From: a virus
Reading direction: 5' to 3' (one strand)
Length of the DNA: 13,591 nucleotides
Virus record (IMG/VR): IMGVR_UViG_3300024262_005390
Shown here: piece by piece, positions 12,602 through 13,591 of the stretch
How positions within the stretch are numbered: the first letter of the stretch is position 1
How the letters are laid out: the number at the start of each line of letters is the position of its first letter
The notes under the pieces: model-generated
What the model saw: the letters and a program-made list of their open reading frames with translations, nothing else
Told to the model about the DNA's origin: nothing
The model's database searches: none
Made by a program: the position numbers and the translations under genes

Positions 12602-13396
12602 CTAGACACCAGTGGTCAAATCATAAGCAAGAATGTGTTGACGCGTGATTCCGCGATATCCATATTTCTTTGTCATCTCGAATAAGAATTTTGTACGCTC
12701 AGCGAGATCAGCGCGATTATCACATCCAGGCATAATGATAACTTGCGTCGGATCTATATTAAATGGAATAATCCATTCGTTTTGAATCTCTTCAATATCT
12801 TCTTCAGTGCTTACTACAAATTTAAAATACCCAAATTCATTATTTTTAATCTGTTCAATTGCTTCTGGGTTAATGCGCATACTCTTTGCCATACCTGAAT
12901 TAGCTAATTTAGGTGAACAGTTGATCTGTTGAATAGGTCCCTCAGAAACGGATCGACCCATAATTATGAAATTACCTGCACCGTGATAAAAATTTGGCTC
13001 AACTACAAGTGTACCATTTGTTTCGATTTCGTTAAAAACAGTATTCTGTGGATATTTCTCATCAAGGAAAGCTAAAAAGTTTTTAATAGCTTTTGTATGC
13101 ATTGGAATTGTAGGTTCACCACCTGTCCATACAATATGAATCTGTCCATTTAGAATTCGATTTAAAACATCTTGTTCAATCCAATCAGCAATAAGATCTT
13201 CATAAGAAGTATCAGTACCTTGGCGCCAAATTGTTTCTGAATCACACCACCATGTAGCCTTACCTTCTTTTACCAAAGATCCGCTAGGACCTCCACACAT
13301 TAAATTACAGCCTTGAAGCCGAATGAAATACGCAGGTACACCAACGGAAGCACCTTCTCCTTGGATCGAATAAAAATGTTCACTAATCTTTAACAT
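12602..13396 (-). CDS. queE: 7-carboxy-7-deazaguanine synthase QueE (radical SAM)
   Basis: N-terminal EHFYSIQGEGASVGVPAYFIRLQGCNLMCGGPSGSLVKEGKATWWCDS matches the QueE signature (E.F.S.QGEG..G.P..F.R..GCN..C..CD). Strong AAAGGAG SD 8 nt upstream of ATG 13396. Confidence 0.9.
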   Translation of the reverse strand: MLKISEHFYSIQGEGASVGVPAYFIRLQGCNLMCGGPSGSLVKEGKATWWCDSETIWRQGTDTSYEDLIADWIEQDVLNRILNGQIHIVWTGGEPTIPMHTKAIKNFLAFLDEKYPQNTVFNEIETNGTLVVEPNFYHGAGNFIIMGRSVSEGPIQQINCSPKLANSGMAKSMRINPEAIEQIKNNEFGYFKFVVSTEEDIEEIQNEWIIPFNIDPTQVIIMPGCDNRADLAERTKFLFEMTKKYGYRGITRQHILAYDLTTGV

Positions 13397-13410
13397 ATTT
13401 GTTACTCCTT

Positions 13411-13590
13411 TTATCTATAAAATATATATTCACTATTTTTAGTTAAAAATGTGATACTATCTCTTGTTGTTTTAGTTATCTTTGTTATAGGGGTTGTTAC
13501 CCAAAAATCTCTACTACTATAAGTACCTGCGGTTATAGAACCAACTAATAAACATGCTCCAACCATAGGAGTATGTCCTACGAGGGTACC
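13411..13590 (-). CDS. 3'-terminal part of an ORF entering from the right edge (..GTLVGHTPMVGACLLVGSITAGTYSSRDFWVTTPITKITKTTRDSITFLTKNSEYIFYR*)
   Basis: Continuous minus-strand reading frame from the window edge to TAA at 13413..13411, directly upstream of queE. Contains one hydrophobic segment. Function not recognised. Confidence 0.4.
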   Translation of the reverse strand, partial: GTLVGHTPMVGACLLVGSITAGTYSSRDFWVTTPITKITKTTRDSITFLTKNSEYIFYR

Positions 13591-13591
13591 A

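What the first reader, a model, noticed from the sequence alone, without database searches (positions are those of the whole stretch)
12602..13591. QueE next to a partial ORF at the window edge: phage 7-deazaguanine DNA modification cluster probably continues to the right
The QueE signature is unambiguous. In phages, QueE occurs in FolE-QueD-QueE-QueC(-DpdA/Gat-QueC) clusters that replace genomic guanine with preQ0/ADG/G+-type 7-deazaguanines to evade restriction. Only QueE is in the window. The ORF entering from the right edge (13411..13590) and the genes beyond it are the obvious places for the rest of the pathway. The downstream Fre-like flavin reductase and metallophosphoesterase are not canonical members. 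They may be unrelated, or could supply reducing equivalents or nucleotide processing.
Basis: partly seen in the sequence, partly recalled or inferred. Interest (0 to 1): 0.55.

Follow-up and report, generated by a model that had tools for sequence, protein, structure and literature searches.

The report
Phage QueE with non-standard gene partners
The window ends with a genuine phage copy of QueE, the enzyme that builds the 7-deazaguanine ring. Related jumbo phages carry QueD just past the edge and QueC about 83 kb away, but no DNA-inserting enzyme was found, so DNA modification is plausible and not shown.

Summary
ORF 12602-13396(-) is a real QueE. It matches phrog_2076 at 5.5e-44. Its AlphaFold model (pLDDT 92) has the three solved QueE enzymes as its six best PDB matches. 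Its Cys triad C30-x3-C34-x16-C51 is invariant in 126 relatives.

The window is a whole 13,591-bp metagenomic contig, so it cannot be extended.

The right-edge ORF is a real but truncated gene. It belongs to a family of ~90-aa proteins of unknown function, not to FolE, QueD, QueC or DpdA.

Three syntenic relatives (QueE 67-70% identical) show what probably lies beyond the edge: thymidine kinase, then QueD about 1.5 kb away. A further 9 kb in the 236-kb relative holds no pathway gene. Its QueC sits ~83 kb away, next to NADAR and DUF366 genes. The pathway is therefore dispersed, not a compact cluster.

No DpdA was found in the window or in the ~46 kb of the closest genome that I read. A sister lineage has QueD-QueE-FNR-like-DpdA3 contiguous, which ties the "Fre-like" reductase to 7-deazaguanine DNA modification. 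The likeliest role of that reductase is electron supply to QueE.

Verdict: a new member of the phage QueE clade with non-canonical conserved partners. DNA modification is likely but unproven.

The parts
12602..13396 (-). QueE (7-carboxy-7-deazaguanine synthase), phage clade, 264 aa. Motifs: QGEG (12-15), Cys triad C30/C34/C51, TGGEP (91-95), ETNG (125-128), SPK (161-163).
   Evidence: phrog_2076 at 5.5e-44. NCBIfam QueE models are the top hits but fall below their cut-offs. AF2 model pLDDT 92. Foldseek top 6 hits are solved QueE structures. The Cys triad is invariant in 126 clade members. It aligns to the B. multivorans Cx14CxxC region.
13411..13591 (-). C-terminal ~59 codons of a small (~90 aa) gene of unknown function, cut by the contig end. 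Its stop codon lies 14 nt before the QueE start, so it is probably co-transcribed.
   Evidence: 58 homologues, best 2.3e-10. Family profile 1.7e-23. Only a weak match to phrog_38150 and no Pfam family. The same family sits directly upstream of QueE in L227/L304 and two genes upstream of QueC in L070/L071.
12212..12520 (-). 102-aa ORF of unknown function in a variable slot between QueE and the phosphoesterase.
   Evidence: No family hit and no homologue in relatives. The slot holds unrelated ORFs of 106 aa in L001 and 118/143 aa in L061/L062, and nothing in L304.
11565..12212 (-). Calcineurin-like metallophosphoesterase, MPPED2-like, 215 aa. It is conserved immediately downstream of QueE in this lineage.
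   Evidence: PF00149 at 1.4e-11, 45.7 bits against a cut-off of 21.5. PDB 3rl4 (MPPED2) at 6e-23. 56-57% identical orthologues hold the same position in L001 and L061, and L304 has a Metallophos gene there.
11270..11578 (+). HNH endonuclease on the opposite strand, inserted between the phosphoesterase and the reductase. Probably a mobile homing endonuclease and not part of the module.
   Evidence: PF01844 at 4.4e-9. Absent from L001 and L061, where the two flanking genes abut.
10609..11256 (-). FNR-family two-domain flavoprotein reductase (FAD- and NAD(P)H-binding, no Fe-S domain), 215 aa counted from ATG 11256. Motifs: RPYSIxSSP, ATGVGISPF, YYLCG.
   Evidence: PF00175 and PF00970 above their cut-offs. 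PDB profile hits to T4moF, BenC, FNRs and E. coli flavodoxin reductase 1fdr. Orthologues lie next to QueE in L001, L061, L014/15/28, L058, L063 and L255. It is absent in L304.
10217..10612 (-). 131-aa ORF of unknown function that overlaps the reductase stop by 4 nt. It is the last gene of the minus-strand block.
   Evidence: No family hit and no homologue in relatives.

Best explanation
The ORF is a functional phage QueE, a radical-SAM enzyme that converts 6-carboxy-tetrahydropterin (CPH4) into 7-carboxy-7-deazaguanine (CDG). It belongs to a jumbo/huge-phage lineage in which the 7-deazaguanine genes are dispersed and not clustered.

By synteny, the contig breaks inside a small gene. Thymidine kinase and QueD follow within about 1.5-2 kb. 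QueC, with a DUF366 gene, lies in another part of the genome. The phage can therefore probably make preQ0, with GTP cyclohydrolase I supplied by the host or by an unseen phage gene.

The downstream FNR-family reductase most likely feeds NAD(P)H electrons to the QueE [4Fe-4S] cluster. It could do so through reduced flavin or through a host flavodoxin. This would keep the enzyme active during infection.

The end use is most likely replacement of guanine in phage DNA, as protection against restriction. The DNA transglycosylase that this requires has not been seen in this lineage.

Shown: QueE family, fold and motifs; synteny; the co-location of the reductase with QueE, and in a sister lineage with DpdA3.

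Inferred: catalytic activity; QueD beyond the edge; electron supply by the reductase; DNA as the target.
For: QueE identity.

No extension is possible because the window is the whole contig.

Synteny with the 236-kb phage contig L001/L030 runs across the MVP-like gene, FEN, NADAR, reductase, phosphoesterase and QueE.

Upstream of QueE:
- L001 has QueD (PTPS 1.1e-25, CxxxHGH motif), TK and a class II RNR.
- L061/L062 have QueD - 2 ORFs - TK - 2 ORFs - QueE.
- L304 has TK - 64 aa - 90 aa (edge-ORF family) - QueE - phosphoesterase.
- QueD lies within 2.6 kb in 48 of 52 distinct relatives.

QueC (57% identical to the L002 QueC), NADAR and DUF366 lie on the same 236-kb contig, ~83 kb from QueE.

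Reductase:
- Of the 16 closest homologues, those looked up or matched by locus lie on QueE contigs: the window, the L001 type, L061, L058 and L063. For two more this is inferred only from matching contig lengths of 3340 and 5346 bp.
- In class B (L014/15/28, L058, L063, L255) the order is QueD-QueE-reductase-DpdA3-like. The DpdA3-like protein matches phiST CGPG_00065 at 6e-10 by phmmer and reaches ~1e-100 against a profile built from the family itself.

Literature:
- QueE is activated in vitro by flavodoxin/flavodoxin reductase/NADPH and by FMN/NADPH (PMC11994313).
- DpdA3 phages such as phiST and CP220 fully replace G (PMC10516641).
Against: - No DpdA, TGT or FolE was found in the window. None was found in ~46 kb (about 20%) of the closest relative's genome. 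DpdA3-family searches did not return the L001 or L002 contigs.
- The reductase is not obligatory. It is missing in L304, a member of the same lineage. In the L002 lineage it lies ~110 kb from QueE, among nucleotide-metabolism genes (Pribosyltran, IMPDH, Metallophos). It lies within 2.6 kb in only 3 of 49 distinct QueE relatives.
- The QueE scores are below the curated NCBIfam cut-offs, and there is no Pfam hit.
- DpdA3 itself is a predicted enzyme that has not been validated biochemically (PMC10516641).
Confidence: 0.6

Rival explanations
1. The phage makes preQ0 or CDG to feed the host's tRNA-queuosine pathway or another soluble 7-deazapurine pool. This would tune translation during infection. 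DNA is not modified and no DpdA exists in the genome.
For: No DpdA or TGT was seen in the window, in ~46 kb of the L001 genome, or in ~50 kb of the L002-type genome. DpdA3 searches did not return these contigs. The 2019 survey noted phages that encode preQ0 genes without a DpdA, whose hosts have the full Q pathway (PMC6884629).
Against: The 2023 re-analysis found a DpdA in all phages known to carry 7-deazaguanine genes once divergent subfamilies were recognised (PMC10516641). A sister lineage with the same QueE-reductase pair has DpdA3 adjacent. About 80% of the closest genome is unread.
Confidence: 0.2
2. The module serves nucleotide-level (pre-replicative) synthesis of a modified purine. QueE, the metallophosphoesterase, thymidine kinase, the P-loop AAA_28 kinase, a phosphoribosyltransferase and RNR would remodel the dNTP pool, and the polymerase would incorporate the modified base. 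The reductase would serve RNR or nucleotide chemistry and not QueE.
For: QueE is flanked by TK, a class II RNR and an MPPED2-like phosphoesterase. An AAA_28 P-loop gene follows QueE within 2.6 kb in 33 of 49 relatives. In L059/L060 the reductase sits with Pribosyltran, IMPDH-family and Metallophos genes and not with QueE.
Against: No enzyme that would convert a 7-deazaguanine base into a nucleotide has been shown. The literature favours post-replicative insertion by DpdA (PMC10516641). The class II RNR does not need a flavin reductase (established knowledge of class II RNR, from memory). In class B the reductase is sandwiched between QueE and DpdA3 with no RNR nearby.
Confidence: 0.12
3. The protein is a QueE-like radical-SAM enzyme with a different substrate, or an orphan remnant without a pathway.
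For: Scores are below the curated QueE cut-offs and there is no Pfam hit. The Cys spacing, CX3CX16C, is unusual. No partner pathway gene lies in the window.
Against: All top fold and family matches are QueE. The QGEG, GGEP, ETNG and SPK motifs are invariant across the clade. QueD lies next door in 48 of 52 relatives. The clade includes QueE of phages with proven 7-deazaguanine DNA.
Confidence: 0.05

Closest known systems
Phage QueE of the 7-deazaguanine DNA-modification systems (Cellulophaga phiSM/phiST, Haloarcula HVTV-1, Campylobacter CP220, Vibrio nt-1; PHROG phrog_2076; Hutinet 2019, Cui 2023)
   Same: Same protein family (5.5e-44 to phrog_2076; 28-38% identity over the full length). The phage members aligned here (phiSM, phiST, nt-1, F379, GR11A) also show C-x3-C followed by an insertion. 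QueD is a near neighbour in relatives.
   Different: In those phages FolE, QueD, QueE (with or without QueC) and DpdA lie within a few kb (phiSM and phiST). Here the genes are dispersed: QueC is ~83 kb away in the closest genome and no FolE or DpdA was seen. QueE is instead flanked by a metallophosphoesterase, an FNR-family reductase, TK and a ~90-aa unknown protein.
Bacterial QueE (B. multivorans 4NJG, B. subtilis 5TH5, E. coli 6NHL)
   Same: Same fold (TM 0.68-0.77). Same N-terminal QGEG and GGEP motifs, which align over residues 4-101.
   Different: Only 19-24% identity. The cluster motif is C-x3-C-x16-C, so the insertion lies between the 2nd and 3rd Cys. B. multivorans has C-x14-C-x2-C. 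The canonical spacing C-x3-C-x2-C in E. coli and B. subtilis is quoted from memory. The protein fails the curated NCBIfam thresholds.
DpdA3-type full-replacement systems (phiST giving dDG, CP220 giving dADG; PMC10516641)
   Same: The sister lineage (L014, L058, L063, L255) has a DpdA3-family gene two genes after a QueE that is 52-58% identical to the window's. The same FNR-family reductase lies in between.
   Different: No DpdA3 was found in the window's own lineage. The closest relative has QueC, which phiST and CP220 lack. No DpdL was found.
Flavodoxin / flavodoxin-NADP+ reductase (Fpr/FPR) reducing system for radical-SAM enzymes; E. coli Fre
   Same: Two-domain FAD/NAD(P)H reductase. E. coli flavodoxin reductase 1fdr matches at 1.3e-9. 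This system, and FMN/NADPH alone, activate QueE in vitro.
   Different: A phage-encoded reductase placed next to QueE is not described in the two phage 7-deazaguanine papers consulted; the first was searched for 'flavin', 'ferredoxin' and 'flavodoxin' and holds none of them. No flavodoxin gene lies nearby. Its best matches are the reductase domains of oxygenase systems (T4moF, BenC).

Membership tests
QueE (7-carboxy-7-deazaguanine synthase, radical SAM) | Three Cys ligands for the SAM-cleaving [4Fe-4S] cluster | tested here: met
   C30, C34 and C51 are invariant in 126 clade members. They align with the cluster loop of B. multivorans QueE. The spacing is the non-canonical C-x3-C-x16-C.
QueE (7-carboxy-7-deazaguanine synthase, radical SAM) | QueE-specific N-terminal QGEG motif and the GGEP SAM-binding motif | tested here: met
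   Q12, E14, G15, T91, G92, G93, E94 and P95 are invariant and align to the same motifs in 4njg and 6nhl.
QueE (7-carboxy-7-deazaguanine synthase, radical SAM) | Score above the curated family thresholds | tested here: not met
   NCBIfam TIGR03963 scores 63 bits against a cut-off of 260. The four other QueE models score 40-48 bits against cut-offs of 200-300. There is no Pfam hit. These models were built on cellular QueE. The virus-specific phrog_2076 matches at 151 bits.
QueE (7-carboxy-7-deazaguanine synthase, radical SAM) | QueE fold | tested here: met
   For the AF2 model (pLDDT 92), the six best Foldseek PDB matches are all QueE, at E 3e-10 to 6e-8. The next fold (anSME) comes at 8e-4.
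QueE (7-carboxy-7-deazaguanine synthase, radical SAM) | Genomic linkage to QueD, which supplies the substrate CPH4 | tested here: inconclusive
   Not visible in the window, because the contig ends 195 bp upstream of QueE. In relatives, 48 of 52 have QueD within 2.6 kb. The syntenic relatives L001 and L061 have it ~1.5 kb upstream.
QueE (7-carboxy-7-deazaguanine synthase, radical SAM) | Conversion of CPH4 to CDG | not testable with these tools
   Needs an enzyme assay or complementation.
Phage 7-deazaguanine DNA-modification system (Dpd-type) | A DpdA-family DNA guanine transglycosylase | tested here: inconclusive
   None in the window. None in ~46 kb of the closest genome. DpdA3 profile searches did not return the L001 or L002 contigs. 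A DpdA3-family gene is present and adjacent in the sister lineage. About 80% of the relative's genome, and the rest of this phage, are unseen.
Phage 7-deazaguanine DNA-modification system (Dpd-type) | preQ0/CDG synthesis genes FolE, QueD and QueE, with or without QueC | tested here: inconclusive
   The window has QueE only. The closest genome has QueD, QueE and QueC. FolE was not found in the parts read.
Phage 7-deazaguanine DNA-modification system (Dpd-type) | 7-deazaguanine nucleosides in virion DNA and resistance to restriction | not testable with these tools
   Needs LC-MS and restriction digests. The phage is uncultured.
FNR-family flavoprotein reductase | FAD-binding RxYS motif, NAD(P)H-binding GxGxxP motif and C-terminal CG motif; Pfam domains above threshold | tested here: met
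   RPYSIxSSP, ATGVGISPF and YYLCG are conserved in the three-way alignment. PF00175 scores 24.6 against 22, and PF00970 scores 23.7 against 21.1. There are 61 PDB FNR-family matches.
Calcineurin-like metallophosphoesterase | Pfam PF00149 above threshold | tested here: met
   45.7 bits against 21.5. MPPED2 (3rl4) matches at 6e-23.

The most novel reading that the evidence does not exclude
This jumbo-phage lineage may run a variant 7-deazaguanine pathway with components not yet recognised. These would be a phage-encoded FNR-type reductase dedicated to activating QueE, an MPPED2-like phosphoesterase, a ~90-aa protein found beside both QueE and QueC, and (elsewhere in the genome) AAA_28 and DUF366 proteins. 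The lineage may insert or incorporate the base without any known DpdA subfamily. That would imply either a new transglycosylase family or a nucleotide-level, pre-replicative route.
Probability: 0.2. Interest if true: 0.7.

Novelty: new variant of a known kind. Interest (0 to 1): 0.42.

Why it matters
7-Deazaguanine DNA modifications are a major phage counter-defence. The current view is that every such phage carries a recognisable DpdA and a compact synthesis cluster.

This contig and its relatives are jumbo phages of 236-248 kb related to 'huge phages'. They show a large, mostly marine/environmental QueE clade (more than 4,000 proteins at E<=1e-10) in which the genes are scattered. The recurrent neighbours are an FNR-type reductase, a phosphoesterase, an AAA_28 P-loop protein, DUF366 and a ~90-aa protein. 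None of these is part of the published pathway.

If the reductase really is a private electron source for a viral radical-SAM enzyme, it would be a simple and testable example of a phage that brings its own radical-SAM activation system.

If no DpdA exists in these genomes, the rule that all 7-deazaguanine phages encode a DpdA would need revising.

The gene itself is an ordinary, well-understood enzyme.

Tried and rejected
1. Extending the window.
- megablast of 10000-13591 against 50,697 phage records gave no match.
- An exact look-up of the QueE protein found nothing on record.
- An exact 33-mer from the right end found nothing in IMG/VR.
- The protein search showed that the identical QueE exists on a single 13,591-bp JGI contig.
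- The JGI metagenome scan returned nothing closer than 70% identity.
- Extension was therefore abandoned in favour of synteny.

2. Right-edge ORF as a pathway gene, tRNA or RNA.
- It had no hit among the first 28 related loci.
- It shows no similarity to the small ORFs upstream of QueE in L001, L034 and L040-42.
- No tRNA and no Rfam family was found.
- An exhaustive HMMER search then showed it to be a real small protein family.

3. DpdA in the L002-type loci. Five conserved unknown families around QueE were read by eye. They look like a primase-like protein and acidic or structural-like proteins, not TIM-barrel transglycosylases. None was tested against a profile library.

4. Linking the DpdA3-like family to TGT by sequence.
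- A profile search against PDB sequences gave nothing.
- Pfam gave only a weak DUF6610 match in 4 of 10 members.
- hhalign against two DpdA2-type sequences gave 2% probability.
- The assignment therefore rests on homology to phiST CGPG_00065 and on the published HHpred result.

5. The promoter and terminator scan of 10000-13591 found no more sites than chance would give.

6. Walking 9 kb further upstream in the L001 genome found no pathway gene.

7. 'Fre-like' as a specific label. E. coli Fre is not among the 60 PDB matches listed, and LuxG matches only at 3.8e-4. The protein is better described as FNR-family.
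Full report
OBSERVATION

The window has 33-36% G+C and looks like phage DNA. From the right edge down to 10217, a block of genes runs on the minus strand:
- an ORF that enters from the edge (13411-13590);
- a 264-aa ORF (12602-13396), with an AAGGAG site 8 nt before its ATG and only 14 nt after the stop of the edge ORF;
- a 102-aa ORF (12212-12520);
- a 215-aa ORF (11565-12212);
- a 215-aa ORF counted from ATG 11256 (10609-11256);
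- a 131-aa ORF (10217-10612).

One HNH endonuclease gene (11270-11578) lies on the opposite strand, between the fourth and fifth of these.

IS IT QueE?

The evidence for:
- NCBIfam lists five QueE models as its five best hits.
- PHROGs gives phrog_2076, 'QueE-like radical SAM', at 5.5e-44 over the whole protein.
- tblastn against 50,697 phage records finds 198 records, none above 38% identity. The list is led by Cellulophaga phiSM-type phages, Haloarcula HVTV-1, Campylobacter CP220-type phages and Vibrio nt-1, all phages known for 7-deazaguanine DNA (PMC6884629, PMC10516641).
- An AlphaFold2 model built on 45 homologues has pLDDT 92.2 and pTM 0.89. Its six best Foldseek matches in the PDB are the three solved QueE enzymes (E 3e-10 to 6e-8, TM 0.68-0.77). 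A 4-log gap separates them from the next radical-SAM fold.
- In an alignment of 126 clade members, the QGEG, TGGEP, ETNG and SPK motifs and three cysteines (C30, C34, C51) are invariant.

The caveats:
- Pfam gives nothing at E<=0.01.
- The NCBIfam scores (40-63 bits) are far below the curated cut-offs of 200-300 bits.

The cysteine spacing is C-x3-C-x16-C. Aligned to B. multivorans QueE (C-x14-C-x2-C), the first and last cysteines coincide, and the middle one sits at the canonical +4 position. The insertion therefore lies between the second and third ligands. I accept the protein as a phage-clade QueE.

THE WINDOW CANNOT BE EXTENDED

The protein database holds the identical QueE once, on a single JGI contig of 13,591 bp, which is the window itself. 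The next closest QueE is 70% identical. DNA and exact-match searches found nothing closer.

THE RIGHT-EDGE ORF

It has no homologue in the first 28 related loci. It is not a tRNA or a known RNA.

An exhaustive HMMER search of 1.84 billion representatives found 58 homologues, the best at 2.3e-10 and 53% identity. Nearly all are proteins of 70-120 aa that match over their C-terminal ~55 residues. A profile built from them scores the window fragment at 1.7e-23.

So this is a real gene of about 90 codons that has lost about a third of its length to the contig end. The family has no Pfam model and only a weak match to phrog_38150, which has no known function. It is not FolE, QueD, QueC or DpdA.

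The same family occurs in two other places:
- directly upstream of QueE in L227/L304;
- two genes upstream of QueC in the 236-kb relative (L070/L071).

That makes three placements beside 7-deazaguanine genes. This is suggestive of a link and no more than that.

WHAT LIES BEYOND THE EDGE, JUDGED FROM RELATIVES

The closest relative is a 236-kb viral contig (L001/L030/L224; QueE 69% identical). It is syntenic with the window across the major-vault-protein-like gene, FEN, NADAR, reductase, phosphoesterase and QueE.

Upstream of its QueE lie 53- and 103-aa ORFs, thymidine kinase, two small ORFs, QueD (PTPS 1.1e-25, with the CxxxHGH signature), a DUF1353 protein and a class II RNR.

A second relative (L061/L062, 70% identical) shows QueD - 2 ORFs - TK - 2 ORFs - QueE - ORF - phosphoesterase - reductase - NADAR.

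A third (L304, 67% identical) shows TK - 64 aa - 90 aa (edge-ORF family) - QueE - phosphoesterase - NADAR, with no reductase.

Among 77 distinct QueE relatives, 48 of the 52 with at least 1.5 kb of upstream sequence have QueD within 2.6 kb.

The most probable continuation to the right is therefore: the rest of the small gene, TK, then QueD at about 1.5-2 kb.

Beyond that the 'cluster' stops. Nine further kb in the 236-kb genome contain no recognisable pathway gene.

QueC of that genome lies ~83 kb away, followed by a NADAR gene and a DUF366 gene and preceded by an AAA_28 gene.

In a second jumbo lineage (L002/L034, L040-42; QueE 62-66% identical), the order is QueD - QueE - ORF - AAA_28 - ... 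- QueC - DUF366 within 8 kb.

IS THERE A DNA TRANSGLYCOSYLASE?

None is in the window. In a third lineage (L014/15/28, L058, L063, L255; QueE 52-58% identical), the order is QueD - QueE - FNR-like reductase - a 294-301-aa protein - ORF - AAA_28.

That 294-301-aa protein is homologous to Cellulophaga phiST CGPG_00065 (phmmer 6e-10; about 1e-100 against a profile built from the family itself). CGPG_00065 is the founding DpdA3, a distant TGT homologue by HHpred, and the type associated with complete G replacement (PMC10516641).

I could not reproduce the TGT link by sequence methods.

Two searches with the DpdA3 family did not return the 236-kb or 238-kb contigs of the window's nearer relatives. 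One was run against IMG/VR and one against 5.8 billion proteins. The ~46 kb of the 236-kb genome that I could read holds no TGT-like gene. About 80% of that genome remains unread, so the point is open.

THE 'NON-CANONICAL' NEIGHBOURS

The reductase.
- It has the FNR-family motifs (RPYSIxSSP, ATGVGISPF, YYLCG), and both Pfam domains score above threshold.
- Its best structural relatives by sequence are the reductase domains of T4moF and BenC, bacterial FNRs and E. coli flavodoxin reductase.
- Its close homologues are few. Those I looked up, or could match to a locus, lie beside QueE: the window, the L001 type, L061, L058, L063 and the L014 group. For two more (3340 and 5346 bp) this is inferred only from matching contig lengths.
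- In class B it is wedged between QueE and DpdA3.
- QueE needs one-electron reduction of its cluster. Flavodoxin/flavodoxin reductase/NADPH, and even FMN/NADPH, do this in vitro (PMC11994313).
- The simplest reading is that the phage brings its own NAD(P)H-driven electron source for QueE.

Against an obligatory role for the reductase:
- it is absent in L304;
- it lies ~110 kb from QueE in the 238-kb genome, where it sits among nucleotide-metabolism genes;
- it accompanies only 3 of 49 distinct QueE relatives.

The phosphoesterase resembles MPPED2 (6e-23). It follows QueE in all four members of the window's own lineage. Its substrate is unknown.

The HNH gene is absent from the relatives and is probably a mobile insertion.

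MECHANISM AND ALTERNATIVES

Most likely (0.6): a working QueE in a dispersed phage preQ0 pathway (QueD, QueE and QueC are present in the closest genome). It is helped by a phage reductase, and its product ends up in phage DNA.

Alternatives:
- supply of preQ0 or CDG to host tRNA or to a soluble pool, with no DpdA (0.2);
- a nucleotide-level route that uses the neighbouring TK, phosphoesterase, kinase and RNR genes (0.12);
- a QueE-like enzyme with another substrate (0.05).

COMPARISON WITH KNOWN SYSTEMS AND NOVELTY

The gene is a new member of the known phage QueE clade.

What differs from the published systems is the architecture:
- the genes are scattered;
- the recurrent partners (FNR-type reductase, MPPED2-like phosphoesterase, ~90-aa protein; elsewhere AAA_28 and DUF366) are not part of the described pathway. 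The 2019 paper contains no occurrence of 'flavin', 'ferredoxin' or 'flavodoxin', and no paper in the library mentions DUF366, PF04017 or COG2029;
- no recognisable DpdA has been seen in this lineage so far.

I rate it a new variant of a known kind, of moderate interest.

Noticed in passing
window 3922-6384 (+) and 6964-8286 (+): An 820-aa protein has major-vault-protein domains above the Pfam thresholds (MVP_shoulder 90 bits, Vault_3 41 bits). It is followed by a 440-aa SPFH/Band-7 protein (phrog_11908). In the phage database the MVP-like protein matches only three uncultured 'huge phage' records of 462-735 kb (LR756500, LR756501, LR756503; 43-44% identity). It is conserved at 67% identity in the 236-kb relative. 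A vault-protein homologue in a phage is unusual.
   Followed up: partly
L070 9473-10081; L002 18136-18738; L040, L041, L042, L064, L065, L074; L003, L004, L009-L011, L013, L019, L022, L023; L047-L049: A ~200-aa DUF366 (PF04017) protein recurs in phage 7-deazaguanine loci. It lies next to QueC in three jumbo-phage lineages, within 2-10 kb of QueE in many marine contigs that lack QueC, and near DpdA3-like genes. No paper in the library mentions DUF366, PF04017 or COG2029. It may be an unrecognised pathway component.
   Followed up: partly
L002 11309-11989; L014 13542-14267; L058 6015-6737; many of L003-L026 and L228-L303: An AAA_28 P-loop (kinase-like) gene lies within 2.6 kb downstream of QueE in 33 of 49 distinct relatives, often directly after it. 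In the window's own lineage the metallophosphoesterase holds that position, and the AAA_28 gene sits near QueC (L070 580-1284).
   Followed up: partly
L003-L026 and L228-L303 (QueE ~50% identical to the window's, largely marine samples): In this large group my profiles found QueD, QueE, AAA_28 and often FolE and DUF366, but no QueC, no DpdA1/2, no DpdA3 and no DpdL within +/-8-10 kb. The product would then stop at CDG, or the later enzymes are unknown.
   Followed up: no
window 11270-11578 (+): An HNH endonuclease gene is inserted head-to-head with the reductase gene and overlaps the 3' end of the phosphoesterase gene by 14 nt. It is absent at this site in L001 and L061. Other relatives carry different homing-type genes in the same neighbourhood: LAGLIDADG in L014, GIY-YIG in L002 and a DUF559/Vsr-like ORF in L061.
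   Followed up: partly
window 9267-9743 (+); L070 8935-9462: NADAR-domain genes lie close to both 7-deazaguanine loci of this lineage. One is near the reductase in the window, L001, L061 and L304. A second lies between QueC and DUF366 in the 236-kb genome (138.8 bits). NADAR proteins are known as N-glycosidases and as guanine ADP-ribose hydrolases (from memory). Any link to the pathway is untested.
   Followed up: no
window 12602-13396 (-), residues 30-51: The cluster-binding motif of the whole phage QueE clade is C-x3-C-x(n)-C, with n = 16 here. The insertion falls between the 2nd and 3rd cysteines, which mirrors the B. multivorans C-x14-C-x2-C arrangement. I did not find this spacing discussed in the papers I read.
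   Followed up: partly
L058 2825-3118; L042 11746-12216: One class B relative has a thioredoxin gene between QueD and QueE. One L002-type relative has a second PTPS-family gene (156 aa) just before QueC, which could be a QueD paralogue of the DpdL kind.
   Followed up: no
L059 4841-5305 and 10001-10663; L060 1801-2265, 3194-3847 and 6747-7799: In two genomes where the FNR-like reductase is not beside QueE, it lies in a conserved block with a phosphoribosyltransferase, a 102-aa ORF, DUF5662, a metallophosphoesterase and (in L060) an IMPDH/GMP-reductase family gene. This is a purine-nucleotide context.
   Followed up: no
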